Origin: an uncultured Anaerolineales bacterium
Lineage (GTDB): Bacteria; Chloroflexota; Anaerolineae; Epilineales; Epilineaceae
Length of the DNA stretch: 64,000 nt
Assembly (NCBI GenBank): GCA_964651245.1
Contig: CAZYVI010000010.1
Span: 93,182-157,181 of the forward strand
Direction: 5' to 3'
Positions 6,322 through 61,417 of this stretch are shown piece after piece. The notes beneath the pieces were generated by a model, which saw only the letters and a program-made list of their open reading frames with translations, was not told where the DNA came from and searched no databases. The position numbers were made by a program, and so were the translations under genes. Position 1 is the first letter of the stretch; each line of letters begins with the position of its first letter.

Positions 6322-7158
6322 TCAGGCCCGCTCGACGACCGCGCCGTATGGTGCCAAACGGCGCGCCATGACCTCGATCGCCGCCGGGTTGTCGTCGACG
6401 AGGATGAAGTCGCGCCCGTGCTTGGCGGCGGCCTCGCCCAGCGTCCCGCTGCCGGCGAAGAAGTCGAGGCAGACGTCGCCGGGGTTCGTGTGGACCTTGA
6501 CGATCCGCTCGACGATCGCCAGCGGCTTCTGGGTGGCGTAGCCCGTCTTCTCGCGCCCGTTCGTGCTGACGATCGTCTGCCACCAGACGTCGGTCGGCGT
6601 CTTGCCGCGCGCCGCCTTCTCGGGTCCGACGATGCCGGGCGCCAGGTAGGGGATGCGGTCGATGGCGTCGTAGTGGAAGGTGTAGGCCTCGGGGTCGACG
6701 CTGTACCACAGGATGTTGTCGTGCTTGGCCGGCCAGCGACGCTTCGAGCGGGCGCCGTAGTCGTAGGCCCAGATGATCTCGTTCTGGAACGCGTCGCGCC
6801 CGAACAGGGCGTCCATCAGGACCTTGGCGTAGTGGACCTCGCGGTAGTCCATGTGCAGGAAGAAGCTGCCGGTCGGCTTGAGCACCCGCCGGCCCTCGGC
6901 CAGGCGCGGGGCGATGAAGCCCGGAAAGTCGACGAAGCGGTCGTCATAGCCGCTGCGGCCGACGGCCTCGCTGCGGTAGCGCCGTCCCTGGAAGCCCGTC
7001 CGGTCGCCGCCGCCGTCGTCGCGGACGGTGCGCAGCTGGGTGCGCGTCTGCCGCCGGCCGGTGTTGAACGGCGGGTCGATGTAGACGAGGTCGACCGACG
7101 CGCTCGGCAGCGTCGCCAGCACGGCCAGGTTGTCGCCCTCGATGATCCGGCCGGCCAC
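6322..7158 (-). CDS. DNA methyltransferase (N4-cytosine/N6-adenine class, DPPF motif); no adjacent restriction gene
   Basis: VDLVYIDPPFNTG, then the catalytic region, with a C-terminal FFAGSGTLGEAA AdoMet motif. This beta-class motif order matches the DNA_methylase_N4/N6 family. GTG start at 7156-7158 with GGAGGGGAGGG upstream. Confidence 0.8.
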   Translation of the reverse strand: MAGRIIEGDNLAVLATLPSASVDLVYIDPPFNTGRRQTRTQLRTVRDDGGGDRTGFQGRRYRSEAVGRSGYDDRFVDFPGFIAPRLAEGRRVLKPTGSFFLHMDYREVHYAKVLMDALFGRDAFQNEIIWAYDYGARSKRRWPAKHDNILWYSVDPEAYTFHYDAIDRIPYLAPGIVGPEKAARGKTPTDVWWQTIVSTNGREKTGYATQKPLAIVERIVKVHTNPGDVCLDFFAGSGTLGEAAAKHGRDFILVDDNPAAIEVMARRLAPYGAVVERA

Positions 7159-7246
7159 GCGCCCTCCCCTCCGGCGCGACGGCGCCGCGCCCGGCGCGGA
7201 GGATGATACCTCCGGCCGCCCGTCCCCTGCCGGCTATACTGCGGCC

Positions 7247-8029
7247 ATGCCCGCCCCGCCGCCACCCGCCCTCGTCCGCGCCGCCGCCGCCGTGGCGACG
7301 GCCTTCCTGGTGCTGCCGCTGGCCGGGCTGGCCGCGCGAACGCCGTGGGACCGGGCGCTGGCGGTCGTGACGGCGCCGGCCACGGTAACGGCGCTGCGGC
7401 TGTCGCTGGTCGTCTCGACGGCCGCCACCGCCGCCGCCTTCGCCCTCGGCTTCCCGCTGGGCTGGTGGTTGGCCCGCGGCGCGCGCCGGCCGGTGGCCGT
7501 GGTGCGGCCGTTCGTGCTGCTGCCGCTCGTGCTGCCGCCGGTGGTGGGCGGCGTGGCGCTGCTGGCGGCGCTCGGGCGCCGCGGCCTGGTGGGCGCCTGG
7601 CTCGACGCGGCCGGCATCCGGCTGCCGTTCACGACGCTCGGCGCCGTCGTCGCCGCCGCGTTCGTCGCGCTGCCGCTCGTCACGCTGGCCGTCGAGGCCG
7701 GCTTCCGCGCGCTCGACCCGCGGCTGGAGGCGGCGGCGGCGGTGCTGGGCGCGTCGCCCGGCTTCACGCTGCGGCGCGTGACGCTGCCGCTGCTGGGGGC
7801 GCAGTTGGCGGCCGGGCTGGCGCTGGGCTGGGCGCGTGCCCTGGGCGAGTTCGGCGCCACGATCACCTTCGCCGGCAACCGGGCGGGCCGGACCCAGACG
7901 CTGCCGCTGGCCATCTACGAGCTGCTCCACCACGACGCCGACGCGGCGATCGTGCTCTCGCTGGGCTTGGTGGCGGTGGCCGCGGCGACCCTGGCGCTGC
8001 TGCACGGCCGCCTGGTGCACGCCGGCTGA
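7247..8029 (+). CDS. modB: ABC transporter permease, molybdate/sulfate (ModB/CysT-like) type
   Basis: Five or six TM helices and the EAAAVLGASPGFTLRRVTLPL (EAA loop) motif. ATG at 7247 is preceded by TATACT (7235-7240) plus 6 nt and no SD, which fits a leaderless transcript. Confidence 0.7.
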   Translation: MPAPPPPALVRAAAAVATAFLVLPLAGLAARTPWDRALAVVTAPATVTALRLSLVVSTAATAAAFALGFPLGWWLARGARRPVAVVRPFVLLPLVLPPVVGGVALLAALGRRGLVGAWLDAAGIRLPFTTLGAVVAAAFVALPLVTLAVEAGFRALDPRLEAAAAVLGASPGFTLRRVTLPLLGAQLAAGLALGWARALGEFGATITFAGNRAGRTQTLPLAIYELLHHDADAAIVLSLGLVAVAAATLALLHGRLVHAG

Positions 8030-11403: not shown

Positions 11404-12159
11404 CTACAACGGGTCGCGCGACGGCGTCCCGGCCTTGCGCGGGTAGGCGCGCGGCGTCGGGCGGCGCTTGTCGACGACGACGAGGTGGCGGGGGCGGTCG
11501 AGACCGGGCAGCTGGTAGGCCAGCCGCGGCCGCGACCGGCCGCCGAGCACCGACAGCGCGGCGACGCTGGCCGCCACCTCGGCGTCGGCGTCGGCGCCCT
11601 TGTACGCCACCACCCGGCCGCCGACGGCCACGAGCGGCAGGGTGTACTCCAGCAGCACCGGCAGCGGCGCCAGGGCGCGGGCGACGGCCAGGTCGAAGCG
11701 CTCGCGCAGGGCGCGGTCGCGGCCGGCGTCCTCGACGCGGCAGTGCAGGGCCGTGACGTTGCCCAGCTCCAGCGCCGCGACGGCCTGCTCGAGGTAGGCG
11801 ACGACCTTGCCGGTGGCCTCGATGAGCGTGAAGCGCCAGCGCGGCCGCATCACCGCCAGCGGCAGCCCCGGGAAGCCGGCGCCGGTGCCGACGTCGACGA
11901 CGGTCAGCGGCCGGTCGGGGTCGAGGTCGGCCATCGCCCGCAGGCCGATGAGGCTGTCGACGATGTGCTGGACGGCGATGTCGGCCGGCGCGGTGATCCG
12001 GGTCAGGTTCATGCGCTGGTTCGCGCCCAGCAGTGCCGCCCCCAGCCGGGCGAACCGCGCCAGCTGCGCCTCGTCGACGGCGATGCCGTGCGCCGCGGCC
12101 AGGTCGCGGACGACGTCGAGGTCGACCGCGGCGGGCGGGTCGGGCGGGGAGGCGGTCAT
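11404..12159 (-). CDS. rsmG: 16S rRNA (guanine527-N7)-methyltransferase RsmG (GidB)
   Basis: [54 protein letters not shown] at 12157-12159. Confidence 0.8.
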
Positions 12160-12282
12160 GGCGCCAAGTGTATACTGAGCCGCCGCGCGGCACGGGGCCG
12201 GCGGCGGGCTCGACGCGCCGCATCGCGGCGGCCGCGCGAGCCACCGCCGCGCGGCGGACCGTTTCGCACAGCGAGGAACGCC

Positions 12283-15204: not shown

Positions 15205-15232
15205 TTGACGCAGTGCGCCGATGGCGTATACT
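15205..15232 (+). promoter_or_regulatory. sigma70-like promoter (TTGACG-N16-TATACT) giving a leaderless toxin-antitoxin transcript
   Basis: -35 TTGACG at 15205-15210 and -10 TATACT at 15227-15232. The GTG start at 15240 lies 7 nt past the -10, so the predicted transcription start coincides with the start codon. Confidence 0.45.
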
Positions 15233-15239
15233 TCTGCTC

Positions 15240-15530
15240 GTGAAGGTCTCCTGGGATCCCGCCAAGAGCGTCGCCAATCGCACGAAGCATGGCGTTTCGT
15301 TCGAGGAGGCTCAGGAGTTGTTCACTTCTGGGGTCGACTACCTCGAGATCTTCGACGACGCCCACTCCGACGACGAGGACCGGTTTCTGGCGATCGGGCC
15401 GATCCGCCGCGGCTTGGTGCTCGTGGTGTGGACCGAGCGCGACGAGCAGGAGATACGTGTCATCAGTGCGCGCTGGGCCACGCCGCGTGAAGCGCAACGC
15501 TTCACCGAACATCTGGAGCACCGATCATGA
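15240..15530 (+). CDS. brnT: BrnT-like (DUF497, RelE-fold) toxin
   Basis: KVSWDPAKSVANRTKHGVSFEEAQELF...VLVVWTERDEQEIRVISARWATPREAQRF. The stop overlaps the next start as ATGA at 15527-15530. Confidence 0.7.
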   Translation: MKVSWDPAKSVANRTKHGVSFEEAQELFTSGVDYLEIFDDAHSDDEDRFLAIGPIRRGLVLVVWTERDEQEIRVISARWATPREAQRFTEHLEHRS

Positions 15531-15820
15531 GCGATGAGATCCAGGAGCTGACGGATACCCAGCTGGCGCGCGCCATCCCGGCAAGCCTGCGCCGCCGTTT
15601 GATGGCCGGCGACATCCGGTCCGGCGAAGACGTGGCGGCCGTTCGACGCTTCGTCGGCCTGTCCCAGACCGAGTTCGCCCGCGCGATCGGTATCAGCGTG
15701 TCGACGCTGCGGAACTGGGAGCAGGGCCGCCGTCATCCGGAGGGTCCCGCCATCGCGCTGCTTCGCATTGCGGTCCGCCACCCGAGGATCATCCGCGAAA
15801 GCCTCGGACGCGCGGCCTGA
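15527..15820 (+). CDS. HTH-XRE antitoxin (COG2944/MqsA-HigA-like) partner of BrnT
   Basis: C-terminal HTH GLSQTEFARAIGISVSTLRNWEQGRRHP. 4-nt ATGA overlap with the toxin gene. Confidence 0.7.
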   Translation: MSDEIQELTDTQLARAIPASLRRRLMAGDIRSGEDVAAVRRFVGLSQTEFARAIGISVSTLRNWEQGRRHPEGPAIALLRIAVRHPRIIRESLGRAA

Positions 15821-15895: not shown

Positions 15896-17221
15896 CTACC
15901 GCAAGAAATCCCGCAGCTTCTTCGACCGCGTCGGATGCCGCAGCCGCCGGATCGCCTTCGTTTCGATCTGGCGGATGCGCTCGCGGGTGACGCCGAAGCG
16001 CTCGCCGACCTCCTCGAGGGTGTGCTGCTTGCCGTCCAGCAGGCCGTAGCGGAGCATCAGGACCTCGGCCTCGCGCGGCAGGAGGTCGTCGAGGATGAGC
16101 TCGATCTCCTCGCGCAGCATCTCGCGGCCGGCTTGCTCGGTCGGGTCGGGCGAGTCGTCGTCGGCCAGGAACTCGCCGAGCTCGCTGTCGGCCTCGTCGC
16201 CGACCTTCTTCTCGAGCGACAACGGGCGCTGGGCGATCTCGCGGATGTGCTCGACGCGCTTGACGGTGACGCCCATCTCCTGGGCCACCTCGGCCAGCGA
16301 CGGCGCGCGGCCCTGCTCCTGCTCGAGGCGGCGGAAGATCGCCATGTACTTGGCGATCTGCTCGCTCATGTGGACCGGCACCCGGATCGTGCGCGCCTGG
16401 TCGGCCAGGGCGCGGGTGATCGCCTGGCGGATCCACCACGTGGCGTAGGTGCTGAACTTGAAGCCCCGCCGCCAGTCGAACTTCTCGACGGCCCGGATCA
16501 GGCCGACGTTGCCCTCCTGGATGAGGTCCAGCAGCGGCACGTCGTTGTTGTTGTACTTCTTGGCGATGTGGACGACGAGGCGGCTGTTGGCCTGGATGAG
16601 CCGCTCGCGCGCGTCGAGGCCCTTGCGGTAGGCGGCGACGAGGACCGGGTCGGTGCCGCCCGTCGCCTTGAGCTCATTCAGGGCCGCCTCGGCGGCGCGG
16701 CCGGCCTCGTAGGCTTGGGCCAGGCTCTTCTCGTCGTCGGCCGTCAGCAGCGGGATCGAGCCGATCTCGCGCAGGTAGAGGCTGACGGCGTCGTCGCCGT
16801 CGCTGAACGACAGGTCGAGGGGCGAGACGCGGATGCCGCGCCCCGACAGGAACGGGTCGAGCTCGGCCGCCAGCGCCTCGAGGTCGAGGTCCTCGAGCTC
16901 GGCCAGGATCTCGGGCGGCGGCTCGTCGTCCGCCAGCACCGCCAGCGGGTCGACGTCGTCGGGCTCGTCGGCCAGGGCGGCGATCGGGTCGCCGTCGGCG
17001 TCGTCGGCGTCGTCCGCGCCGACGACCATCGCGCCGTCGTCCCCGTCCGCGGCGCGCACCTCGAGCCCCGCGTCCTGCGCCGCCGCCCGTAGCGCCGCCA
17101 GCGTCGCGCCGTGCCGGTCGGCGGGGGGCAGCGCCTGCGCCAGGTCGCTCGAGGTGAGGTAGCCCTGTTCCTTCGCGACGGCCCGCAAGGCCGCGAGCGC
17201 TTGGTCGAACGACATCGGCAT
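15896..17221 (-). CDS. rpoD: primary RNA polymerase sigma factor (sigma-70 family, RpoD/SigA)
   Basis: Acidic region 1.1. Region 2 [53 protein letters not shown]. Region 3 and region 4 [30 protein letters not shown]. Confidence 0.9.
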
Positions 17222-17379
17222 CGGGGCGCAGATCCAGACAGGGGGGCGGCGGACGGACGGGCTGCTGGGCGTCGGTCGCGGTCCGTCCGTACGGGTGGCG
17301 CAAGTGTAGCGCCGCGGGGGGGGGAGTCAAACACACCTGCTATACTCAGGCGCTGCGCCGGCCTACACCTGCCACGACC

Positions 17380-18036
17380 ATGACCCAGCTCTTGCTCGTC
17401 CGCCATGGCATGACGGATTGGGTCGGCGAACGCCTCGCCGGCCGGACGCCGGGCATCCCGCTGAACGCCGCCGGCCGCGCCGAGGCTGCCGCCCTGGCCG
17501 CCCGCCTGGCCGATACGCCGATCGAGGCCGTCTACGCCAGCCCGTTGGAGCGCACGCGCGAGACGGCCGGCTACCTGGCCCAGCCGCGCGGCCTCGACGT
17601 GACCGTGCTCGACGGCGTCGGCGAGGTCGACTTCGGGGCCTGGACCGGTCGCCCGCTGGCCGAGCTGCGGCGCGAGAAGCTGTGGCGCACGGTGCGCGCC
17701 ACGCCCAGCGCCATGCGCTTCCCGGACGGCGAGCGCCTGCTCGACGCCCAGGCCCGGGCGCTGGCGGCGATCGAGGCGGTGCGCGCCGCGCACCCGTGGT
17801 CGACGGTGGCGGTGGTGTCGCACGCCGACATCATCAAGGCCATCCTCGCCCACCACGCCGGGCTCCACTTCGACCTGTTCCAGCGCATCACGATCGGCAC
17901 GGCCAGCCTCTCGATCCTCCACCTCGACGCCGACGGCGCGTCGGTCGTCCTGGTCAACGACGTCGGGAAGGTGCCGCCGCCGCCGAAGCCGCCCGAGCCC
18001 GAGCCGGCGGCCGAACCCGGTTCGCAGGAGGGCTAG
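17380..18036 (+). CDS. histidine-phosphatase (phosphoglycerate-mutase-like) family protein, MSMEG_4193-type
   Basis: LVRHGMTDW catalytic RHG motif and ...VVSHADIIKAI. It is the first gene of a conserved trio with the next two genes. TATACT at 17341-17346. Confidence 0.7.
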   Translation: MTQLLLVRHGMTDWVGERLAGRTPGIPLNAAGRAEAAALAARLADTPIEAVYASPLERTRETAGYLAQPRGLDVTVLDGVGEVDFGAWTGRPLAELRREKLWRTVRATPSAMRFPDGERLLDAQARALAAIEAVRAAHPWSTVAVVSHADIIKAILAHHAGLHFDLFQRITIGTASLSILHLDADGASVVLVNDVGKVPPPPKPPEPEPAAEPGSQEG

Positions 18037-19421: not shown

Positions 19422-19578
19422 GCCGGCGCGGGTCGACGCGTCAACCGATCCCACCGTCGACGCGCCGTCGCAGCCGTCGCGACCGCCCGTCGCGGACGGG
19501 CTGGCCTCGCCCGGCGCGGCCAACCTACAATCGGCGTCCGGCGCCCGGCCGTGGGGTGCCCCGCAGGAGGCGACGACG

Positions 19579-23160: not shown

Positions 23161-23904
23161 TTAGCCGCGCGGCCGGTTCAACCGCTGTGCGGCCGCGGCC
23201 AGATCGCTGAGGGTGTTGACGTTGAGAAACGACCGGCCATCCGGGTCGGCCGGCCGCCAGCGTTCCGGCGGTACGACCACCGACGGGACGGCGCTGGCCA
23301 ACAGTTGGGCTGGCGCCGGTCCGCCGGCCAGCAGCCGCTCGATCGCCGGGACGCAGCCGCGGCGGTAGGCGGCCAGCAGCGGCTGGAGACCGCCTGCCCC
23401 GGGGTCGGGCGACGGGCCGGCCGCGGGCAGCGCCTGCGGCCCGGCGTCCGGCACGGCCGCCAGGGCGGGGCCGACGGCGTCCGCCAGCAGCGCCAGCAGC
23501 GCCGGCTGGACGAGCGGCAGGTCGCAGGCCACCACCAGGCAGAGGTCGGTCGGCGCCGCCGTCAGGCCGGCGTGCAGCCCGGTGAGGGGTCCGCGGGCCG
23601 GCAGCCGGTCGACGACGACGGGCACCCCGAACGCGAGGAAGCGCGCGTCGTCGTCGTGCGCGACGACGACGCGGTGGGTCGTCACCGCCGCCAACGCCTC
23701 GAGCACCCACGCCAGCAGCGGCCGGCCGGCGAGCGCGAGGAAGGCCTTGTCGATGCCCATCCGCCGGCTGCGACCGCCGGCCAGCACGACGCCGGTGGCC
23801 GGCTCGGCGCCAAGGCGCAGCGGCGCGGCCGCCGGGTCGATCACAGCGGTGGCGTCCGGCGCGGCGACCGGCCGGCCGCGCGGCGCCGGGAGGGGGCGGG
23901 GCAT
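23161..23904 (-). CDS. mobA: molybdenum cofactor guanylyltransferase-like nucleotidyltransferase (MobA family)
   Basis: GVVLAGGRSRRMGIDKAFL, PLTGLHAGL, ACDLPLV, LNVNTLSDL. The start is uncertain: the ATG at 23904 gives a long N-terminal tail, and internal GTG or CTG starts are possible. Confidence 0.55.
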   Translation of the reverse strand: MPRPLPAPRGRPVAAPDATAVIDPAAAPLRLGAEPATGVVLAGGRSRRMGIDKAFLALAGRPLLAWVLEALAAVTTHRVVVAHDDDARFLAFGVPVVVDRLPARGPLTGLHAGLTAAPTDLCLVVACDLPLVQPALLALLADAVGPALAAVPDAGPQALPAAGPSPDPGAGGLQPLLAAYRRGCVPAIERLLAGGPAPAQLLASAVPSVVVPPERWRPADPDGRSFLNVNTLSDLAAAAQRLNRPRG

Positions 23905-24043
23905 GGCGCGATGGTGCCACAGGGGCGCGAGGGCGACCACATCGGCCCGGTCGGCCCCCGTGCCGGCGCGTTCGCCGACCCTGTCGCCGGGGACGGCCGC
24001 GCCGCCGCCGCCGCGCGCCGCGACCGTCCCTATAATCGCCGCC

Positions 24044-26077
24044 ATGTGCGGCATCTACGGCGTCGTCGTCCGACCCGGCGCGGCCATCGATCCGGCGCGC
24101 GTGGCGGCGATGGGCGCGGCGCTGGCCCACCGCGGGCCGGACGATGCCCACAGCTGGACGGACGGCACGGCGGCGCTGGGCGCGACGCGGCTGTCGATCA
24201 TCGACGTCGCGGGCGGCCGGCAGCCGGTGGCCAACGAGGACGGCTCGATCGTCGCCTGCCAGAACGGCGAGCTCTACAACTACGCCGCGCTGCGGGCCGA
24301 GCTGGCCGCCGCCGGCCACGCCTTCGGCAACCACGGCGACACCGAGGTCCTGCCGCACCTCTACGAGGCGGACGGCCTCGACTTCGCGCGGCGGCTGCGC
24401 GGCATGTTCGCGGCTGCGATCTGGGACGCCCGCCGCGGCCGATTGGTGCTCTCGCGCGATCGGCTCGGGATCAAGCCGCTGCACTACGCCGAGAGCGACG
24501 ACGGCCTCTGGTTCGCCAGCGAGATCAAGGCGATCCTGGCCGCCGGCTACGCCAAGCGCCTCGACCCGCAGGCGCTGCACGACTACCTCAGCCTCGACTA
24601 CGTGCCCGGGCCGGCGACGATGTTCGACGGCATCCGCAAGCTGCCGCCCGGCGCGCAGCTCGTCTGGGACGCCGGCGCGCCGCGCGGCCGGGCGCTGGGC
24701 GTGCGGCAGTGGTGGTCGTGGCCGGCGCAGCGCGGCGCGCCGGCGGGCGCCGCCGACCGCGCCGCGCTGCCCACCGCGCTGCCGCGCAGCGAGGACGGCT
24801 GGGTGCGCGTGGTGCGCGCCGCGCTCGAGGACGCCGTGGCCGCCCACCTGGTCAGCGACGTCCCTGTCGGCGCGTTCCTGTCGGGCGGGATCGACTCGAG
24901 CGTCGTCGTCGCGCTGATGCAGCGGCTGAGCGGCCGCGTCGAGACGTTCGCCGTCGGCTTCGACGACGCGTCGTACGACGAGCTGCCGTACGCCGAGCGC
25001 GTTGCGGCCCACTGCGGCACGGTCCACCACGCGACGATCGTGCGCCCGGCCGCCGAGGCGCTCGTGCACGACCTCGTCACGGCGTTCGACGAGCCGTTCG
25101 CCGACTCCTCGGCCATCGGCTCGTGGATCGTGGCGCGCGAGGCGGCCGGGCACACCAAGGTCGTGCTGTCGGGCGACGGGGGCGACGAGGTCTTCGGCGG
25201 CTACGTCATCTACCAGGCCGACCGCCTGGCGGCGATCGGGCGGCGGCTGCCGTCGCTCCTCACGCGGCGTCTCCTGCCGTCGCTCGCCCGCGCCGTGCCG
25301 GCCTCCGATCGCAAGATGGCGCTCGACCTGCGGCTGCAGCGCTTCGCGCGCGGCATCGCGCTCGACCCGCTGGCGGCGCACCTGGCGTGGCGGGAGATCT
25401 TCGCCGAGGACGCCAAGGCGACCCTCTACGCCGCCCACGACACTGCACGCCTCGGCGCCCACGACACCGACCACCCATCCCACGAGGGCCTGGACCCCGG
25501 ATCCCACGCCCGTGTAGGGGCACGGCATGCCGTGCCCTCCCCCGCCGTCCGCCCCACCCTCGACCTACTCCGGGCCGCCCACGACGCCTACCCCCATGCC
25601 GACCCGATCAACCGCCTCATGGCCGTCGATGCCTCGATCAGCCTCGTCGACGACATGCTCACCAAGGTCGACCGCACGAGCATGGCCCACGGCCTCGAGG
25701 TTCGGGTGCCGCTGCTCGACCACCCGCTCGTCGAGTTGCTGGCGCGCGTGCCCGACGTCTACAAGGTCCGCCCGATCCACCGCGGCCTCGGCCTCAAGCC
25801 GCTCCTGCGCCGCGTCGCCGCCGACCTGCTGCCGGCCGACATCGTCCGTCGGCCCAAGGCCGGCTTCCACGTCCCGATCCCGGGCTGGCTCAAGGGCGAG
25901 CTCCGGCCGCTGCTCACCGATGTCCTGTCGCCGGCGCGGGTGCGGCGCCAGGGCATCTTCGATCCCGATGCGGTCGATGCGCTCGTCCGGGCCCACCTCG
26001 ACGGCCGCCACAACCTCAGCCGCGAGCTCTGGGGGCTCTTGATGTTCGGGCTGTGGTACGAGCGGCATCTGGCGTGA
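24044..26077 (+). CDS. asnB: asparagine synthase (glutamine-hydrolysing)
   Basis: N-terminal MCGIYG nucleophile Cys2. SGGIDSS PP-loop. The C-terminal synthetase domain continues to ...WYERHL. TATAAT at 24031-24036 plus 7 nt precedes the ATG, suggesting a leaderless transcript. Confidence 0.9.
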   Translation: MCGIYGVVVRPGAAIDPARVAAMGAALAHRGPDDAHSWTDGTAALGATRLSIIDVAGGRQPVANEDGSIVACQNGELYNYAALRAELAAAGHAFGNHGDTEVLPHLYEADGLDFARRLRGMFAAAIWDARRGRLVLSRDRLGIKPLHYAESDDGLWFASEIKAILAAGYAKRLDPQALHDYLSLDYVPGPATMFDGIRKLPPGAQLVWDAGAPRGRALGVRQWWSWPAQRGAPAGAADRAALPTALPRSEDGWVRVVRAALEDAVAAHLVSDVPVGAFLSGGIDSSVVVALMQRLSGRVETFAVGFDDASYDELPYAERVAAHCGTVHHATIVRPAAEALVHDLVTAFDEPFADSSAIGSWIVAREAAGHTKVVLSGDGGDEVFGGYVIYQADRLAAIGRRLPSLLTRRLLPSLARAVPASDRKMALDLRLQRFARGIALDPLAAHLAWREIFAEDAKATLYAAHDTARLGAHDTDHPSHEGLDPGSHARVGARHAVPSPAVRPTLDLLRAAHDAYPHADPINRLMAVDASISLVDDMLTKVDRTSMAHGLEVRVPLLDHPLVELLARVPDVYKVRPIHRGLGLKPLLRRVAADLLPADIVRRPKAGFHVPIPGWLKGELRPLLTDVLSPARVRRQGIFDPDAVDALVRAHLDGRHNLSRELWGLLMFGLWYERHLA

Positions 26078-26576: not shown

Positions 26577-26681
26577 GTCGTGCGTTCCTCCTTGCGCATC
26601 GTCGGACCGCCCGTTGACGGCCCGTGCGCGGCGAGTATCCTCCCCGCCGCCGCTGCGCGCAACCGCTTCCCCGAGGACGAC

Positions 26682-27948: not shown

Positions 27949-28737
27949 CGACCGCCGCGCACTTCGCCGCGCGGCGGTCGCCAGCGTCAGGCCGACGAAC
28001 CGCACCAGCCGCAGCTGCCGCCGCCAGCGCCACGGTTCGTTCAAGAGGCGCCACAGCCAGATCAGCCCGAGGCGGCGGACGATCAAGGGCGGCCACGGGC
28101 TGACGCCGGCGATGAAGTCGAACGTCCCGCCGACCCCGATGCCGACCGGGATGCCGAGCCCAGGCAGCGCATCGTGCAGCCAGATCTCCTGCGCCGGCGT
28201 GCCATACGCCACGAGCACGACGTCGACGGGCGCCGCGGCGGCCAGCGCGGCGCGGACGGCCGCCGCGTCCGAGGCGCGCGGGCTGCCGGCGAACGTGCCG
28301 GCGATCGTCAGCCCGGGGTGGTCGGCGGCCAGCCGGGCTGCGGCGCGATCGGCCACGCCGTCGGCCGCGCCGAGCAGGAACACCCGCCAGCCGGCCGTCG
28401 CCGCGGCGCCCGCTAGGCGCACCGTCAGCGCGCTGCCCGGGACGACGGCCCGGATCGGCGTCCCGAGCCGCCGCGCCGCCCAGCGGATCCCGACGCCGTC
28501 CGGCGTCGCCAGCGCGGCGGAGGCGAGCGCGGCGGCCAGGGCGGGGTCGTGACGGGCTTGGACGACCATCTCGGGGTTGGGGGTCGCGACGACGTGGCTG
28601 CGCCCCGACGCGCGCCCGTCGGCGATGAGCGCGGCGACGCGGTCGACGGCCTCGTCCATCGTCACGTCGTCGACGCGCGTCCCGAGGACGTCGATCGCGC
28701 CGCCCGCGCCCGCGGCCGTCCGCCGTTCAGGTATCAT
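27931..28737 (-). CDS. WecB/TagA/CpsF-family glycosyltransferase
   Basis: IDVLGTRVDDVTMDEAV, VVATPNPEMVVQA, PDGVGIRWAAR, WRVFLLGA, VGGTFDFIAG. The 3' end overlaps the MFS 3' end by 18 nt in convergent orientation. Confidence 0.75.
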   Translation of the reverse strand: MIPERRTAAGAGGAIDVLGTRVDDVTMDEAVDRVAALIADGRASGRSHVVATPNPEMVVQARHDPALAAALASAALATPDGVGIRWAARRLGTPIRAVVPGSALTVRLAGAAATAGWRVFLLGAADGVADRAAARLAADHPGLTIAGTFAGSPRASDAAAVRAALAAAAPVDVVLVAYGTPAQEIWLHDALPGLGIPVGIGVGGTFDFIAGVSPWPPLIVRRLGLIWLWRLLNEPWRWRRQLRLVRFVGLTLATAARRSARRSLGGRR

Positions 28738-28745
28738 CGCCGGCC

Positions 28746-29987
28746 ATGTCGCCCACTGCGCCTGTCCCGCCCCCCGCCGGCCGCCGCGCCCTCGCACCCG
28801 GCGGCCGACGCCAGCAGCGCGGCCGGTTCGCGCTGGCGCTCCTGGCGTACGCCGCGCTGACGGTGGTCGTGTTCGGGCTCGTCTTCCGCTACATGAAGCG
28901 GCTGGCGCGCCTGTACGGCTACGACATCGAAAACATCTGGCTGCAGTACGGCCTGGTGTGCCTGATCTTCCTGGTGTTCGTCGTCGGCGTCGACTGGGCG
29001 TTCGGCTGGCTGCCGGGACGGCCGCGGCCGCGGCTGCGGCGCGAGAACCGGCTGCGCCTGGCGCTGCTCGGCGGGCTGACGCTCGCGGCGATCGTCGCCG
29101 CCTACCAGTCGCGCTTTCCGAACGACCCCGAGATCGGCATCGACAAGGGGATCACCTACCTCATCGCCGGGGCGCTGGGCAGCTACGCCGGGGCGCTGGC
29201 CGCCACCTGGCGGACCTACGGCCTCGTCGAGGTCATCGCCCCGCCGCCGCCCGACGTCGTGCGCGCGGTGGCGGCGGCCCACGCGGGCGTGCCGCCGGCG
29301 CGGACGGCGTGGGACCGCGCCAAGCGCCTCTTCGACGCCGCGATCGCGCTCCTCATCCTGTTCGTCAGCCTGCCGATCTCGATCCCGCTGACGATGGCGC
29401 TGTGGTGGCAGGATCCCGGCCCGCTGCTCGTGGCCAAGGTGGCCGTGCGGCAGGGCGGCAAGAGCTTCCGCCAGCTCAAGCTCCGGACGATGGTCAAGAA
29501 CGCCGAGGCCGCCACCGGCCCGGTCCCCGCCGCGCCGACCGACGCCCGCGTGACGCGCCTCGGCGGGCTGTTGCGCCGGACGCACATCGACGAGCTGCCG
29601 CAGATGATCAACATCGCGCTCGGACAGATGAGCCTCGTCGGGCCGCGCCCCGAGCGGACCGTCTTCGTCGCCCGCCACCTGGTCCAGGTGCCCGGCTACG
29701 CCGAGCGCCACGCCGTGCCGCCCGGGCTCGCCGGCCTGGCCCAGGTCTACGGCGACTACTACAGCACGCCGCGCGAGAAGCTGCGCTACGACCGCCTCTA
29801 CATCCGCAAGCGCGGCCCCGCGCTCGACGTCCACCTGTTCCTGACCGCCGTCGCCCTCGCCTTCCTCGGCATCCGCCCCGGCGCCCGACACCGCCGCCGC
29901 GAGCGCCTCCGGCAGCGGGAGCAGGGCCGCCGCTACGGGCGGGCGTACGAGGCGCTGCGCGGCGAGCGGATGGACGGCCAGGGGTAG
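28746..29987 (+). CDS. undecaprenyl-phosphate sugar phosphotransferase (bacterial sugar transferase, WbaP/EpsL-like)
   Basis: N-terminal TM helices. RLFDAAIALLILFVSLPI, RQLKLRTM, DELPQMINIALGQMSLVGPRPE. TATCAT at 28732-28737 plus 8 nt precedes the ATG. Divergent from the TagA-like gene. Confidence 0.8.
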   Translation: MSPTAPVPPPAGRRALAPGGRRQQRGRFALALLAYAALTVVVFGLVFRYMKRLARLYGYDIENIWLQYGLVCLIFLVFVVGVDWAFGWLPGRPRPRLRRENRLRLALLGGLTLAAIVAAYQSRFPNDPEIGIDKGITYLIAGALGSYAGALAATWRTYGLVEVIAPPPPDVVRAVAAAHAGVPPARTAWDRAKRLFDAAIALLILFVSLPISIPLTMALWWQDPGPLLVAKVAVRQGGKSFRQLKLRTMVKNAEAATGPVPAAPTDARVTRLGGLLRRTHIDELPQMINIALGQMSLVGPRPERTVFVARHLVQVPGYAERHAVPPGLAGLAQVYGDYYSTPREKLRYDRLYIRKRGPALDVHLFLTAVALAFLGIRPGARHRRRERLRQREQGRRYGRAYEALRGERMDGQG

Positions 29988-30505: not shown

Positions 30506-30651
30506 CTCAAGCCTCCTCACCCCTGTCGATCGAGGTTCGGCCCTCAGCCTACCACAACCATCGCCGCCGCGGCGCCGGGCGTCGGGGCGGCGACCGCCGC
30601 CGCGGACCACCCATCCGCATCGACGCCCGCGCGATGCGGTATCCTGGGCCG

Positions 30652-33297
30652 ATGGCACCGCGACCGCGCCCGCCGCTCCCCCCGCTGCCCGTCGAGCGCA
30701 CCGCCCTCATCGGCCGCGACGAGGCGCGCCGCGCCGTGGCCGAGCGGCTGGCGCGGCCCGACGTCGGGCTGGTGACGATCACCGGGCCCGGCGGCGCCGG
30801 CAAGACGCGCCTCGCCCTCGCCGTCGCCGCCGACGTGCGCGATCAGTTCCCCGACGGCGTCGCGCTGGCGCCCCTGGCCGCCCTCGCCGACCCCGCCCGC
30901 GTGCCCGACGCCCTCGGCGCCGCCGTCGGCCTGGCCGAGGCCGACGGCGCGGCCGCCGTCGCCGCGGCCATCGGCGACGCGTCGCTCCTGCTCGTCGTCG
31001 ACAACTTCGAGCACGTCACGTCCGCCGCGCCGGTCGTCGCCGACCTCCTCGCGGCCTGCCCGGGCCTCAAGGTCGTGGCGACGAGCCGCGAGCCCCTCGG
31101 TCTCTACGGCGAGCACGAGCTGCCGCTGGCGCCGTTCGACGTGCCCCGCCTCGACCAGCTGCCGGCCGGGCGCGGCGTCGCCGACGTCCTGCCGGCGCTC
31201 GCCCGCAGCCCGGCCATCGCCTTGCTCGTCGAGCGCGCCCGCGCCGTGCGGCCCGACTTCGCGCTGACCGCCGCCAACGCGCCGGCTATCGTCGACATCT
31301 GCCGCCGGCTCGACGGGCTGCCGCTGGCCATCGAGCTGGCGGCCGGCCGGCTGCGGCTGCTCGACCCGGCCGCGCTGGCCGACCGCCTGGCCGAGAGCCT
31401 CGACGTCCTGGGCGTCGGGCCGCGCGACCGGCCGGCCCGCCAGCAGACGCTGCGCGGCGCCATCGACTGGAGCTACCGGCTGCTCGAGCCCGACGAGCAG
31501 GCCCTGTTCCGCAGCCTCGGCGCGTTCGCCGGCGCCGTCGGCGTCGCGGCGGCGGCGGCGGTGCGCGCGGCGCTGCCGGATGGCGGGGCGGTGGTCGAGC
31601 CCGGCCCGGCGGCCAACGGCGGGCGGTCCGGCGACGGGGCGGCGGTCGAGGCGGGGCTGGCGTCGCTGGCGGCCAAGAGCCTGGTGCGGCCGCAGCCGGG
31701 ACCCGGTCGTCCCCGCTTCGAGCTGCTGGCGATGCTGCGCGCCTACGCCGTCGAGGCGTTGCGCGCAGCGGGCGAGCACGACGCCGTGCGCCGCGCCCTG
31801 CTGCGGTGGTGCCTCGACGAGGCGCGCGACGCGGCGGCGGCGCTCGAGTCGGCCGAGCCGCGCACCGGGGTCGAGCGGATCGTGGCCGAGCACGACAACC
31901 TCGGCGCCGTCCTGGCGTGGTCGCTGGGCGGTGGCGTCGACGCCGCTGTGGCGCAGGACGGCGCGCGGCTGGCCATCGCCTTGGAGCGGTTCTGGCTGGT
32001 GCGCGGCCGGCCGGCCGAAGGCCAGCGCTGGTGCGCCCGCGCCGCCGCCGTCCTCGACGCCAGCCCCGGCGCCGCGCCGCGCGAGCGGCTGGCCGCGCAC
32101 CGCGCCACCGGCCGCTTCGCCTACCTGCGCCACGACGTCGCCGCCGCCTCCGAGGCGCTCGACGCGGCGATGGCGCTGGCCCGGGTGATCGGCGACGACC
32201 TCGAGGCGGCCCGGACGCTGCACAGCCTGGGCACGCTAGCGCGCAACGTCGGCCGGCTCGACGACGCGCGCGCGTGCTACGCCGAGGCGCTGATCCTGGG
32301 CCGGCAGGCCGGCGCCGCGCGCGAGCCGGCGATCAGCCTCTACAACCTGGGCGCGCTGGCGATGCTCGACGGCGACCTGCCGGCGGCCGAGGCCGCCTTG
32401 ACCGAGAGCCTGGCGCTGGCCGTGGCCGCTGGCGATGTCCGCGGCGAAGTTTTCGGCCGCAGCGCGCTCGGGACGTTGGCGGCCTGGCGCGGGCACGCCG
32501 ACGCGGCCGTCACCGCCCTCGAGGCCGCGCTGGCGCTGGCCGAGCGGCACGGCTTCCGCGACCACGCCGTTGGGCACGCCAGCCTTGCGCTCTCGGCGGT
32601 CGAGCACGGCCTCGGGCGGGTCGATCGGGCGGCGGCCGTTCTGGCCGCGGCGCTGGTCCGGCGCGTCGACGACGCCGTCGCGACCGCCCACCTGGTCTGG
32701 GCGGTGGCGAACCTCGTCGGCTGGCCGGCGACGGTGCCGATCGACGACGCGGCCGGGCCGCTCGCGGCGCGCCGCCGGCGGCCCGACGCGCGCCGATCGC
32801 GCGACGCGGCGGCGCTGGCGACGGCCCTGCGCCTCGTGGCCGCGGCCGAGGCCGTCGCGCCGCTGGCCGACGTCTTCGGGGCCGAAGACGCCGCGGTCGC
32901 CGACGCCAACCGCACCGCGCTGCGGACGGCGCTCGGCCCGGCGGCGGCGTCCATCGAGGCGGACGGGGCGGCGCTGGACATCGAAGCCGCTGTGGCCGAG
33001 GCCCTGGCGGCCTGTCGCCGGCTGGCCGAGGCGGCCCCGACGCCGCCGGCCGGGTGGGCGAACGACGACGCCACGCCCGAGGACGGTGGGCGCCGCGCCG
33101 ACATGCGCGCCATGCTCAGCGAGCGCGAGTGGGAGGTCGCCGAGCGCATCGCCGCCGGGCGCACCTACCGCCAGATCGCCGACGAGCTCGCGATCGTGCC
33201 GAAGACCGTCGAAAAGCACGTCGGCAGCGCGCTGGCCAAGCTGGGGCTGGCCAACCGGACCCAGCTGGCGTTGTGGGTGCGGGGGCGCACCGGGTAG
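30652..33297 (+). CDS. LuxR-family transcriptional regulator with an N-terminal NB-ARC/AAA (STAND) NTPase and TPR repeats
   Basis: Walker [12 protein letters not shown], Walker [18 protein letters not shown], and the LPLAIELAA helical domain. Long TPR-like Ala/Leu repeats. C-terminal [51 protein letters not shown] plus 6 nt precedes the ATG at 30652. Confidence 0.8.
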
Positions 33298-33360
33298 GAC
33301 GCGCGACCGCGCCGCCACATGCGATCGACCCGGGTCGCCGAGGGTCGCCCGCGAGGTGAA

Positions 33361-33830
33361 TGTAGGGGCACCCCTTGTGGGTGCCTATAGGCGACAAGGT
33401 AGCGGCCGCACGTAGATGATCGCGCTGCCGTCCGATCACCCGGCGATGAATCGCCGGGCTACAACAACGACGCCGGCTGAAGCCGGCAACAGGCAGCAAC
33501 ACGTATCGCGACGTGCCGTTTGGTTCCTCACTCCTCACCGCCGCTGAACCGTCCAAGCGGCCCCGGCTTCTCTGACCTAGGCGAGACCGCTGAAGGTCCG
33601 CCCGTAGCCGGCTTCAGCCGGCGTCGTTCCTGTAGCCCGGCCGTTCACGGCCGGGCGGGGCGGGGCGGGAACCGGACCACGCCGTGGCCGCTACCTTGTC
33701 GCCTATGGGGCACCCCTTGTGGGTGCCCTTCGCCCACCATGCGACCACCCTTCGCCCACCAGGCGAATACCATGCGACCGACGATGGTCGTGCAACGTGC
33801 GAAGGGCACCCACAAGGGGTGCCCCTACGC
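33361..33830. repeat. nested inverted-repeat element (MITE/SNR-like) in a convergent intergenic region
   Basis: gggcaccccttgtgggtgcc-tataggcgacaaggtagcggcc (33365-33407) is inverted against ggccgctaccttgtcgcctat-ggggcaccccttgtgggtgccc (33686-33727). An inner inverted repeat centres on the palindromic gccggctgaagccggc (about 33468-33492 against 33600-33636). A third copy of the gggcacccacaaggggtgccc hairpin lies at about 33800-33823. Direct repeats ttcgcccacc...atgcgacc lie at 33729-33780. No coding potential. Confidence 0.5.
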
Positions 33831-33858
33831 GGATGTCGTGACGAACGACAACGCCCCG

Positions 33859-38227: not shown

Positions 38228-38790
38228 CGGACGAGCTCCGCCGCCAGCCCGACCGCCAGCAGTCCCAGGCCGAGCAGGACGAACAGCGACGCCTGGTTGA
38301 AGGCACGCAGCTTGGCGTTCGTGATCACGGCGTTGGCGACGATCTGGCCGGCCAGCGCGACGTGCAGCGGGTGGTCGGCCGGCGCGTAGCCCGTGGCGCC
38401 GCCGTAGCGGGCGGCGACCTCGGCGGCGAGCTCGTCGGGCGTGTAGGCCGCCAGGTGGCCGCTGTAGAACAGGTTGTCGTGCGGCTCGCCGCGGCGGGGG
38501 CGCGACGGCCGCAGCCGCGGCGGGCCGTGCGGCCGGAACGACCACACCGCGGTGGCCAGCGCCGCCAGGAACGCCAGCTCGGCGGCGCCGAACGCGGCCA
38601 CCGCCGGCGCCGGCATGTTGTCGGCGCCGCGCAGCAGGCTGATCATCGCCGCGTTCGCCGTGCCCGTCAGGGCGGAGACGGCCAGGTTCTTGGCCTCGGC
38701 GAACCGCAGCCAGGCGTCGACGCGGTCGAGGATGTCGGCCAGGAGGTCGCCGGTCGGGCCGGCGTCGGCGGCCGGCGCGCGGGCGGTCAT
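38224..38790 (-). CDS. hypothetical membrane protein (188 aa; hydrophobic segments plus a C-terminal TM anchor)
   Basis: MTARAPAADAGPTGDLLADILDRVDAWLRFAEAKN..., hydrophobic stretches, then the C-terminal SLFVLLGLGLLAVGLAAELV. Its ATG overlaps the upstream stop as ATGA at 38787-38790, and its stop overlaps the cyclase CTG. Confidence 0.5.
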   Translation of the reverse strand: MTARAPAADAGPTGDLLADILDRVDAWLRFAEAKNLAVSALTGTANAAMISLLRGADNMPAPAVAAFGAAELAFLAALATAVWSFRPHGPPRLRPSRPRRGEPHDNLFYSGHLAAYTPDELAAEVAARYGGATGYAPADHPLHVALAGQIVANAVITNAKLRAFNQASLFVLLGLGLLAVGLAAELVR

Positions 38791-39218: not shown

Positions 39219-39353
39219 CGGGTCCTCCTCGGGGCGAACGGAGAAGCGCGGGCCAGTGTAGGCCGGCGGGGGGCGGGTCGCAAGGGCGGCGACGGGGGTG
39301 GTATCATCGACCGGCTCGACCGACACCGTCCCCACCAACGAGGAGCCCCTGCC

Positions 39354-48893: not shown

Positions 48894-49031
48894 CGGGTGC
48901 GCTCCGGGACAGGTCGGGCGGCATCGTCGGCGCTCGGGCGCCGGCGGCACGATGGTAGCCAGGCGGCCCGGGAACGCAATCCCCGACGCCGATGCGATGG
49001 GCCGGAAGGACACCGGATGTGCATGGCAGGC

Positions 49032-49060
49032 TTGACATGGTGACAAGTATGGCTTACACT
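49032..49060 (+). promoter_or_regulatory. sigma70-type promoter TTGACA-N17-TACACT for the XRE/2-TM gene pair, carrying a TGACA-N3-TGACA direct repeat
   Basis: -35 TTGACA at 49032-49037, a 17-nt spacer, and -10 TACACT at 49055-49060. AGGAGG at 49072-49077 lies 7 nt before the ATG at 49085. Confidence 0.5.
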
Positions 49061-53442: not shown

Positions 53443-53591
53443 GGGCCTCCTCCTTCCCGCGGCTGCGGGGGCACGGGCGCTCTCGGGGCTGGGGCGATGC
53501 GGTGGCGAAGTATAGCGCCCCGCCGCCCGCCGACGGCGTATCATCGGCGCCACGATGCGCCGCCGTGGCGCCGCCCACCGAGGAGCGCTGC

Positions 53592-61336: not shown

Positions 61337-61417
61337 CCGGCCCTCCCCACCGCCGCGCGCGCCGCGGTCCGGTCGCCGCCATCGGCGCCGGCCGGCGCGC
61401 CGTCCCGAGGATGCGCC

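What the first reader, a model, noticed from the sequence alone, without database searches (positions are those of the whole stretch)
7235..7249. Recurrent TATACT/TATAAT-N6-8-start codon arrangement points to frequent leaderless mRNAs
Several well-supported genes have a -10-like hexamer 6-8 nt before the start codon and no Shine-Dalgarno sequence:
- modB: TATACT 7235-7240, ATG 7247.
- The brnT toxin: TATACT 15227-15232, GTG 15240, with a proper -35 TTGACG 16 nt upstream.
- asnB: TATAAT 24031-24036, ATG 24044.
- The sugar transferase: TATCAT 28732-28737, ATG 28746.
- The LuxR-STAND regulator: TATCCT 30639-30644, ATG 30652.

Other genes in the same window carry strong GGAGG-type RBSs. The genome therefore appears to mix leaderless and SD-led initiation, with TATACT as the preferred -10.
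Basis: seen in the sequence. Interest (0 to 1): 0.5.

Follow-up and report, generated by a model that had tools for sequence, protein, structure and literature searches.

The report
Promoter boxes abutting start codons: leaderless genes
In this very GC-rich bacterial DNA, six or seven genes have a promoter "-10 box" only 6-8 bases before their start codon and no ribosome-binding site, the well-known signature of leaderless mRNAs, so the finding is real but ordinary.

Summary
All five hexamer/start-codon pairs are in the sequence; only the LuxR hexamer is off by 1 nt (30640-30645). A sixth pair (rsmG, TACACT-N7-ATG, minus strand) and a probable seventh (mobA-like, TGGCACCAT-N6-ATG) were missed.

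The window is ~76% GC and holds only 56 TANNNT hexamers on both strands. Six of them lie 6-8 nt before gene starts that my hexamer-blind codon-usage caller picked. Public gene calls use the same starts for the five genes on record. Shuffles expect 0.18 such sites (0 of 2000 reach 6).

All six genes head transcription units and lack an SD. About 20 other genes have GGAGG-type SDs, several fed by the same kind of hexamer 20-110 nt upstream.

The asnB start is fixed by the obligatory Met-Cys N-terminus. In 65 of 80 orthologous loci TANNNT sits 6-9 nt before it. This includes the closest relative, an Ardenticatenales (Chloroflexota) MAG, where TATAAT is kept while the spacer differs.

This is the TA-led / GeneMarkS-2 "group C" architecture known from Actinobacteria and Deinococcus. 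No transcription start site has been mapped, so leaderlessness remains inferred. "TATACT preferred" is only partly right: TATCAT is equally common.

The parts
7235..7240 (+). -10-like hexamer TATACT, 6 nt before the modB ATG
7247..8029 (+). modB (molybdate ABC permease, 260 aa). First gene of the modBC unit, divergent from a DNA methyltransferase gene. No SD.
   Evidence: The start was picked by blind codon scoring. A public gene call gives the same 260-aa product. TIGR02141/TIGR01581 match and TM1 lies at the N-terminus.
15205..15210 (+). -35 hexamer TTGACG of the brnT promoter, 16-nt spacer
   Evidence: 10 of 12 matches to consensus
15227..15232 (+). -10 hexamer TATACT, 7 nt before the brnT GTG
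15240..15530 (+). brnT toxin gene (96 aa, GTG start). brnA antitoxin (15527-15820) overlaps its stop by 4 nt.
   Evidence: The Pfam BrnT_toxin profile starts at residue 5. A public gene call gives the same 96-aa product followed by a 97-aa HTH antitoxin. brnA Pfam hits are.
24031..24036 (+). -10 hexamer TATAAT, 7 nt before the asnB ATG
   Evidence: It is conserved as TATAAT-N8-ATG in the closest relative L001, although the intergenic spacer differs in length and sequence.
24044..26077 (+). asnB (glutamine-hydrolysing asparagine synthase, 677 aa). The start is fixed by the N-terminal Met-Cys-Gly-Ile.
   Evidence: TIGR01536 and the GATase domains align from residue 1-2. All 80 orthologs begin ATG/GTG-TGY.
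28732..28737 (+). -10-like hexamer TATCAT, 8 nt before the sugar transferase ATG. It overlaps the ATG of divergent wecG on the opposite strand.
28746..29987 (+). Polyprenyl glycosylphosphotransferase (Bac_transf, 413 aa). ATG 28746 is the first start codon in the ORF.
   Evidence: A public gene call gives the same 413-aa product. The next in-frame start would cut the first TM helix.
30640..30645 (+). -10-like hexamer TATCCT, 6 nt before the LuxR-STAND ATG.
30652..33297 (+). LuxR-family STAND regulator (AAA_16 + TPR + GerE, 881 aa)
   Evidence: AAA_16 starts at residue 19. Public gene calls give an 881-aa product and the same start. Homologs align from residues 1-12.
12167..12172 (-). -10-like hexamer TACACT, 7 nt before the rsmG ATG.
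11404..12159 (-). rsmG (16S rRNA m7G527 methyltransferase, 251 aa). Divergent from glyA. No SD.
   Evidence: A public gene call gives the same 251-aa product.
23911..23919 (-). TGGCACCAT: a VANNNT-type -10 (CACCAT) with a TGn extension, 6 nt before ATG 23904 of the mobA-like gene. Probable seventh case.
   Evidence: The block TGTGGCACCAT-N6-ATG is conserved in L001 while the 6-nt spacer differs.
23161..23904 (-). MobA-like nucleotidyltransferase gene, start revised to ATG 23904
   Evidence: The Pfam NTP_transf_3 domain position, candidate starts and conservation in L001.

Best explanation
These hexamers are the -10 elements (T-12, A-11, T-7) of housekeeping sigma-70-type promoters. A primary-like sigma factor is encoded in the window itself. 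Each hexamer ends 6-8 nt before an ATG or GTG, so RNA polymerase should start transcription on, or within a few bases of, the A or G of the start codon. The resulting mRNA has no 5' untranslated region and no Shine-Dalgarno sequence. A ribosome carrying initiator tRNA recognises the 5'-terminal AUG or GUG directly.

In this window that applies to six genes, probably seven, and every one is the first gene of its transcription unit: modB, rsmG, brnT, asnB, a sugar transferase, a LuxR-STAND regulator, and probably a mobA-like gene. About 20 other genes use GGAGG-type SD sites. Some of these lie behind the same kind of -10 hexamer placed 20-110 nt upstream. A further set has leaders without an SD.

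Shown here: the sequence arrangement, its statistical excess, the gene starts, the position at the head of transcription units, and conservation at asnB.

Inferred: the position of the transcription start and the SD-independent mode of translation.
For: Sequence and statistics:
- All sites were verified.
- Six TANNNT lie at d=6-8 against 0.18 expected; 0 of 2000 shuffles reach 6; placement p = 9e-6.
- TANNNT is very rare here (56 in 128 kb of strand) and concentrated in non-coding DNA: 31 sit in about 8% of the sequence.
- Relaxing the motif to ANNNT gives 10 hits at d=6-8 against about 0.9 per offset elsewhere.

Gene starts:
- They are independent of the hexamers: blind codon-usage calling and identical products in public gene calls for modB, brnT, Bac_transf, rsmG and LuxR.
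- Pfam and NCBIfam coordinates agree.
- asnB must start at Met-Cys, because the Ntn amidotransferase nucleophile is Cys2.

Context:
- All six genes have a divergent neighbour or a gap of at least 97 nt upstream, and none has an SD.
- brnT has a full TTGACG-16-TATACT promoter.

Conservation at asnB:
- 65 of 80 orthologous loci have TANNNT 6-9 nt before the fixed start. Only T1, A2 and T6 are invariant, and the middle positions are mostly G, A or C (TAGACT, TAGAGT, TAAGGT).
- Nine of the 15 loci without the hexamer have a GGAG/GAGG/AGGA SD core instead; the other six show neither signal.
- The closest relative, L001, keeps TATAAT although the intergenic region differs in length and sequence.

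Literature:
- The same spacing is the published hallmark of bacterial leaderless genes. GeneMarkS-2 places the Pribnow box 6-8 nt from the gene start in group C genomes (PMC6028130).
- TANNNT about 12 bp upstream of the translation start defines TA-led leaderless genes (PMC3160421).
- In M. smegmatis, mapped starts give 24% leaderless transcripts, an (T)ANNNT -10 and no -35 consensus (PMC6448022).
- Toxin-antitoxin transcripts are predominantly leaderless in M. tuberculosis (PMC8485053 abstract).
Against: - No transcription start site, RNA-seq or proteomic N-terminus data exist for this organism.
- Five of the six promoters lack any recognisable -35. This is also typical of mycobacterial promoters.
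- For LuxR an in-frame ATG (30634) lies 18 nt upstream and overlaps the hexamer.
- For modB, LuxR and the sugar transferase, the N-terminal 20-190 residues lie outside conserved domains. Their starts therefore rest on codon statistics, TM-helix logic and gene callers.
- The sample is only 64 kb with about 47 genes, so the genome-wide frequency is uncertain.
- Conservation could be tested only for asnB and the mobA-like gene. No close relative was found for the other loci.
Confidence: 0.8

Rival explanations
1. The hexamers are genuine -10 promoter elements, but for some of the genes the real start codon lies further downstream. Those mRNAs would then have a short, SD-less leader rather than none.
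For: modB, LuxR and the sugar transferase have in-frame GTG or ATG codons 15-40 codons downstream. Their conserved domains begin only at residues 19-190. Leadered genes without an SD do exist in this window: the sigma-70 gene, the His_Phos gene, and the abhydrolase gene with TATCAT 20 nt upstream.
Against: - It is impossible for asnB (Cys2) and unlikely for brnT, where the domain starts at residue 5.
- Downstream starts would truncate the first TM helix of modB and of the sugar transferase, and the GidB domain of rsmG.
- Codon scoring and public gene calls all choose the hexamer-adjacent start.
- The tight 6-8 nt clustering would be unexplained if these codons were not the real starts.
Confidence: 0.1
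2. The genes are transcribed from promoters further upstream. The A/T-containing hexamer would act on the RNA as an unstructured or S1-binding translation enhancer that replaces the SD in a very GC-rich leader.
For: A/U-rich patches upstream of start codons have been proposed as RPS1 sites for non-SD genes (PMC5397173). In a 76% GC genome any A/T patch would lower local structure.
Against: - The conserved positions are exactly T1, A2 and T6. The middle positions are G/C-rich in orthologs such as TAGACT and TAAGGT, so the signal is not general AU-richness.
- The same hexamer types occur at promoter distance with TTGAC -35 boxes before SD-led genes.
- There is no other TANNNT upstream of these genes.
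- All six genes are at the heads of transcription units and none is operon-internal, which a purely translational signal would not require.
Confidence: 0.06
3. The arrangement is a coincidence combined with biased choice of starts by the first reader.
For: Long ORFs and alternative starts are abundant in high-GC DNA.
Against: Zero of 2000 shuffles reach the observed count, and only 2 of 2638 non-gene ATG/GTG have the hexamer. The arrangement is conserved across 65 of 80 asnB orthologs.
Confidence: 0.02

Closest known systems
Bacterial leaderless ('TA-led') genes; GeneMarkS-2 'group C' genome organisation (Actinobacteria, Deinococcus-Thermus)
   Same: - A -10 Pribnow-like TANNNT lies 6-8 nt from the start codon of first genes in operons.
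- There is no SD.
- SD-led genes coexist in the same genome (PMC6028130; PMC3160421).
- The first T of the hexamer sits at -12 to -14 here, against about -12 reported.
   Different: The organism appears to be an uncultured, about 76% GC Chloroflexota relative, not an actinobacterium or Deinococcus. Its closest asnB is in an Ardenticatenales MAG. Zheng et al. found TA-led genes in only 4 of 12 Chloroflexi genomes, at 4-5.7% of genes. This window shows about 13-15% of genes, on a small sample.
Mycobacterial SigA promoters and leaderless transcripts (M. tuberculosis, M. smegmatis; mapped by TSS-seq)
   Same: - The -10 is TANNNT or ANNNT, with no conserved -35.
- About a quarter of transcripts are leaderless and start with AUG or GUG.
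- Many leadered genes lack an SD.
- Toxin-antitoxin and amino-acid biosynthesis genes are over-represented among leaderless transcripts (PMC6448022; PMC8485053).
- Here brnTA and asnB are among the cases.
   Different: The middle of the hexamer is more E. coli-like here (TATACT, TATCAT, TATAAT) than the degenerate TAnnnT of actinobacteria. Several promoters in the window do have good TTGAC -35 boxes. There is no experimental start-site map.
Deinococcus deserti leaderless transcriptome
   Same: Transcription starts lie exactly at or very near AUG or GUG, with a TAnnnT -10 just upstream (PMC4007540).
   Different: D. deserti has 47-60% leaderless mRNAs. Here the figure is roughly 17-20% of candidate transcription units.

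Membership tests
Bacterial leaderless (TA-led / group C) gene architecture | A -10-like TANNNT hexamer ending 6-8 nt upstream of the start codon (first T about -12 to -14) | tested here: met
   Six genes have d=6, 7, 7, 7, 8 and 6. A seventh has CACCAT at d=6.
Bacterial leaderless (TA-led / group C) gene architecture | Positional excess of the hexamer at that offset over shuffled upstream sequence and over other offsets | tested here: met
   Six observed against 0.18 expected; 0 of 2000 shuffles reach 6; binomial p = 9e-6.
Bacterial leaderless (TA-led / group C) gene architecture | No Shine-Dalgarno sequence between the hexamer and the start codon | tested here: met
   There is no GGAG, GAGG or AGGA at -3 to -13 in any of the six genes.
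Bacterial leaderless (TA-led / group C) gene architecture | The gene is the first in its transcription unit | tested here: met
   Five have a divergent upstream neighbour. brnT follows a 97-nt gap that contains a full promoter.
Bacterial leaderless (TA-led / group C) gene architecture | The start codon is AUG or GUG, and it is the true translation start | tested here: met
   Five ATG and one GTG. The starts are supported by blind codon scoring, identical public gene calls, domain coordinates and the Cys2 of AsnB.
Bacterial leaderless (TA-led / group C) gene architecture | The transcription start site coincides with the start codon (leader of 5 nt or less) | not testable with these tools
   No transcriptome or 5'-end data are available for this organism.
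Bacterial leaderless (TA-led / group C) gene architecture | The arrangement is conserved in orthologs of related genomes | tested here: met
   For asnB, 65 of 80 loci have it, including the closest relative L001. The mobA-like block is conserved in L001. The other loci have no close relatives available.
Canonical sigma-70 promoter (-35 TTGACA, 16-18 nt spacer, -10 TATAAT) | A recognisable -35 hexamer at 16-18 nt from the -10 | tested here: inconclusive
   This is met for brnT (TTGACG-16-TATACT, 10 of 12). It is not met for the other five leaderless candidates. Promoters that rely on the -10 alone are usual in high-GC Gram-positive lineages (PMC6448022).

The most novel reading that the evidence does not exclude
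This uncultured, about 76% GC lineage is probably Chloroflexota, near Ardenticatenia. It may use leaderless initiation at actinobacterial-like frequency, roughly one transcription unit in five. The only survey read here that gives a Chloroflexi figure reports 4-6% of genes (PMC3160421), so this would extend 'group C' genome organisation to a branch of Chloroflexota. In addition, some divergent gene pairs are packed very tightly: the wecG and sugar-transferase start codons are 8 bp apart, and the rsmG and glyA -10 boxes overlap back to back. A -10 box of one gene then overlaps the start codon or the -10 box of its neighbour, which could couple or mutually exclude their expression.
Probability: 0.35. 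Interest if true: 0.3.

Novelty: new member of a known kind. Interest (0 to 1): 0.2.

Why it matters
The practical value is for annotation. In this lineage, gene finders that assume an SD will misplace starts, and "group C"-aware models should be used. The -10 box next to the ATG gives a cheap way to fix start codons and promoters in a 76% GC genome, where ORF-based calling is unreliable.

Biologically it adds one more, probably Chloroflexota, lineage to the bacteria that mix leaderless, SD-led and SD-less leadered initiation. It does not open a new question. The mechanism and its signature are textbook for Actinobacteria and Deinococcus.

Tried and rejected
- Exact-protein lookup of AsnB found nothing. 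Other window proteins were found, but only on contigs of 7 kb or less from the same or a near-identical organism. These help check gene calls, not conservation.
- A metagenome scan with the LuxR regulator returned only 32-55% identical family members and no orthologous loci. Conservation of the modB, brnT, sugar transferase, LuxR and rsmG promoters could therefore not be tested.
- Rfam and tRNA scans of the window found nothing, so no riboswitch or RNA gene explains any of the leaders.
- I profiled start codons that open ORFs of at least 150 aa at each distance after TANNNT. The profile is too noisy inside the window, because long shadow ORFs are common at 76% GC. It gives a sharp peak at 6-8 nt in the actinobacterial loci.
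- I looked for a symmetrical -10 for wecG, the divergent neighbour of the sugar transferase, and found none.
- Two further hexamer-plus-start pairs were rejected as genes. TATGAT-N6-TTG 57006 is antisense to the SulP gene and has no Pfam hit. TACCTT-N7-ATG 33705 opens a 71-aa ORF inside a repeat region, also with no Pfam hit.
- TACTCT-N5-TTG 3214 was rejected in favour of the SD-led ATG 3238.
- The GeneMarkS-2 supplementary tables, which might list group C Chloroflexi, are not held.

Full report
**1. What is in the sequence**

- modB: TATACT 7235-7240, then 6 nt, then ATG 7247.
- brnT: TTGACG 15205-15210, a 16-nt spacer, TATACT 15227-15232, then 7 nt, then GTG 15240.
- asnB: TATAAT 24031-24036, then 7 nt, then ATG 24044.
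- Sugar transferase: TATCAT 28732-28737, then 8 nt, then ATG 28746.

Pfam and NCBIfam confirm the gene identities:
- BPD_transp_1 / TIGR02141 for modB
- BrnT_toxin
- GATase_7 + Asn_synthase / TIGR01536
- Bac_transf
- AAA_16 + TPR + GerE

**2. Is it more than chance?**

I built a codon-usage log-odds gene caller that knows nothing about upstream motifs. It also chose ATG 12159 on the minus strand for rsmG, which is preceded by TACACT 12167-12172 with a 7-nt gap.

TANNNT is very rare in this DNA. There are 56 copies on both strands together, and 31 of them lie in the roughly 8% that is non-coding. Six of the 48 called starts have TANNNT ending 6-8 nt upstream.
- Dinucleotide-preserving shuffles of the 100-nt upstream regions give a mean of 0.18 and a maximum of 3. 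None of 2000 shuffles reaches 6.
- Placing the 17 real upstream hexamers at random offsets gives p = 9e-6.
- Only 2 of 2638 non-gene ATG/GTG codons have such a hexamer.

**3. Are the start codons right?**

- asnB: the protein must begin Met-Cys, because Cys2 is the catalytic nucleophile of class II (Ntn) amidotransferases. This is established biochemistry. The ORF reads M-C-G-I, and family models align from residue 1-2.
- brnT: the Pfam profile begins at residue 5.
- Sugar transferase: ATG 28746 is the first start codon in the ORF. The next candidates fall inside the first TM helix.
- rsmG: the next downstream ATG would delete the beginning of the GidB domain.
- modB: downstream GTGs fall inside TM1, and the upstream candidates overlap the divergent gene.
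- LuxR: AAA_16 starts at residue 19, and homologs align from residues 1-12.

Gene calls stored in a public collection for contigs of the same organism give exactly the same products: modB 260 aa, BrnT 96 aa, Bac_transf 413 aa, RsmG 251 aa and LuxR 881 aa.

**4. Context**

All six genes head a transcription unit. Five have a divergent upstream neighbour. brnT follows a 97-nt gap that holds a full promoter. None has an SD core at -3 to -13.

By the same criterion, 20 of 47 genes have an SD. Examples are GGAGGGGAGGG before 7158(-), GGAGG before 18041, 19579, 26576(-), 30505(-), 46809(-) and 53442(-), and AGGAGG before ATG 49086.

Many other strong hexamers sit 20-110 nt upstream of SD-led genes, several with TTGAC-type -35 boxes:
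- TTGACA-17-TACACT at 49031-49060
- TTGACT-16-TACACT at 17330-17303
- TTGACG-16-TATCCT at 26614-26641
- TATCAT at 39302 and 61331
- TACAAT at 19526
- TATACT at 53509(-)

The same -10 type therefore drives both leadered and putatively leaderless units.

A third class also exists: leadered genes without an SD. It includes the primary-like sigma-70 gene 15896-17221(-) and the His_Phos gene at 17380.

Among the hexamers, TATACT and TATCAT are equally frequent (5 each). TACACT follows with 4, TATCCT with 3 and TATAAT with 2. "TATACT preferred" is thus only partly right.

**5. Comparative evidence**

A scan of 185,579 species genomes with AsnB returned 80 loci. The closest are all Chloroflexota MAGs:
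- an Ardenticatenales MAG (L001, 76% identity; taxonomy)
- Candidatus Epilinea brevis (58%)
- a Thermomicrobiales MAG (55%)

The remainder are mostly Thermoleophilia and other Actinomycetota.

All 80 genes begin ATG/GTG-TGY. In 65 of them a TANNNT ends 6-9 nt upstream (spacings: 6 nt in 17 loci, 7 in 15, 8 in 28, 9 in 5). Only 4 hexamers occur at any other offset within 60 nt. Only T1, A2 and T6 are invariant. The middle positions are mostly G, A or C (TAGACT 21, TAGAGT 14, TAAGGT 12, TACACT 9). This is the sigma-70 -10 signature rather than general AU-richness.

Of the 15 loci without the hexamer, nine carry a GGAG/GAGG/AGGA SD core instead. These include all five Dactylosporangium loci and the Thermomicrobiales MAG. 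The other six show neither signal.

In L001 the TATAAT is retained (N8-ATG). The rest of the divergent intergenic region differs in length, about 66 nt against 139 nt, and in sequence.

The same alignment revealed a second conserved block, TGTGGCACCAT-N6-ATG, in front of the divergent mobA-like gene (window ATG 23904, minus strand). The hexamer CACCAT keeps A2 and T6 and is preceded by TGn, so it looks like an extended -10. This is a probable seventh leaderless gene. It also corrects my first start call for that gene, 24054.

Across the roughly 1.3 Mb of actinobacterial loci, start codons that open long ORFs peak sharply 6-8 nt after TANNNT.

**6. Mechanism**

In sigma-70 promoters the -10 hexamer occupies -12 to -7, and transcription starts about 7 nt after it, usually on a purine. 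This is established knowledge.

A gap of 6-8 nt therefore places +1 on, or next to, the A or G of the start codon. The mRNA then has no 5' UTR. Such mRNAs are translated by ribosomes that recognise the 5'-terminal AUG or GUG with initiator tRNA, without an SD:anti-SD interaction (mechanism reviewed in PMC10783764).

What is shown here:
- the motif, its spacing and its statistical excess
- the validity of the starts
- the position at the head of transcription units
- the absence of an SD
- conservation at asnB

What is inferred:
- the actual position of the transcription start
- the mode of translation

**7. Comparison with what is known**

This is the architecture described as TA-led genes. 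TANNNT lies about 12 bp upstream of the translation start; the class makes up 19% of genes in Actinobacteria, 39% in Deinococcus-Thermus, and 4-5.7% in 4 of 12 Chloroflexi genomes (PMC3160421).

It is also the GeneMarkS-2 "group C" organisation, with the Pribnow box 6-8 nt from the gene start in 25-50% of operons (PMC6028130).

It has been confirmed by start-site mapping in mycobacteria: 24% of transcripts are leaderless, the -10 is (T)ANNNT, there is no -35 consensus, and 53% of leaders lack an SD (PMC6448022). It has also been confirmed in Deinococcus deserti (PMC4007540).

Toxin-antitoxin transcripts are predominantly leaderless in M. tuberculosis (PMC8485053 abstract). Amino-acid biosynthesis genes are enriched among leaderless transcripts in M. 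smegmatis. brnTA and asnB fit both patterns.

One survey lists Ardenticatenia at 44% SD usage, alongside Deinococci at 45% (PMC10783764 Table 1). My crude count here is 20 of 47, or 43%.

**8. Verdict**

The phenomenon is well known. The only new element is the lineage, an uncultured and very GC-rich organism that is probably Chloroflexota. Its apparent frequency is about 13-15% of genes, or 17-20% of candidate transcription units, and this rests on only 64 kb.

Interest is low. The main use is correct start and promoter annotation.

Noticed in passing
window 28732-28748: The start codons of divergent wecG (ATG 28737, minus strand) and the sugar transferase (ATG 28746, plus strand) are only 8 bp apart. 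The TATCAT -10 of the sugar transferase overlaps the wecG ATG on the other strand. wecG has neither an SD nor any TANNNT on its strand for about 1.8 kb upstream, so its promoter must lie inside the neighbour's coding region or be of another type.
   Followed up: partly
window 12167-12176: Two -10-like hexamers overlap back to back in AGTGTATACT. TACACT on the minus strand lies 7 nt before rsmG. TATACT on the plus strand lies 106 nt before the SD-led glyA. RNA polymerase could probably not occupy both at once.
   Followed up: no
window 23911-23919 (minus strand); L001 843-851: TGGCACCAT-N6-ATG before the mobA-like gene is conserved between the window and the Ardenticatenales MAG, while the 6-nt spacer differs. 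It is a non-TANNNT, extended -10-like leaderless candidate that a strict TANNNT search misses.
   Followed up: partly
window 7198-7213: A perfect palindrome, GGAGG-ATGATA-CCTCC, surrounds the minus-strand TATCAT hexamer upstream of the DNA methyltransferase gene (6322-7158). It could be an operator or a hairpin at the divergent modB / methyltransferase promoter region.
   Followed up: no
window 33298-33858: This 560-bp intergenic region is packed with repeats. There are three exact copies of the hairpin-forming GGGGCACCCCTTGTGGGTGCC (33365, 33707, and 33805 on the minus strand), found nowhere else in the window. There is also a 56-nt inverted repeat (33439-33494 / 33600-33655) and an 11-nt-period tandem at 33726-33769. 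It looks like a REP- or MITE-like element. There is no Rfam hit.
   Followed up: partly
window 15896-17330 (minus strand): A primary-like sigma-70 gene (regions 1.2, 2, 3 and 4; 441 aa) has its own TTGACT-16-TACACT promoter 81 nt upstream of the ATG. Its leader has no recognisable SD, so it is an example of the third class, leadered without SD.
   Followed up: partly
window 38224-38790 (minus strand): There is a weak Pfam hit (E = 3e-7) to PycTM, the Pycsar anti-phage effector. It lies next to a large AAA/TPR protein (35378-38116 or longer). The upstream in-frame extension of that protein reads [11 protein letters not shown], a motif that resembles a nucleotide cyclase. This could be a defence module.
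   Followed up: no
window 58949-64000: The 1585-aa minus-strand ORF 58949-63706 has no Pfam hit. The plus strand carries an AAA_23/AAA_27 (SbcC/YhaN-like) gene starting at ATG 61418, with a GAGGA SD and a TATCAT promoter at 61331. The long minus ORF is probably a high-GC shadow ORF, at least in that part.
   Followed up: partly
window 53539-53567: The alpha/beta-hydrolase gene (GTG 53565) has TATCAT ending 20 nt upstream and CACGAT ending 8 nt upstream, with no SD. It is either a very short SD-less leader or another VANNNT-type leaderless start.
   Followed up: no
window 15240-15820: brnT and brnA form a toxin-first operon with a 4-nt ATGA overlap (15527-15530), sitting in a local GC dip (68.5% against about 76%). 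This is consistent with a mobile toxin-antitoxin cassette.
   Followed up: partly
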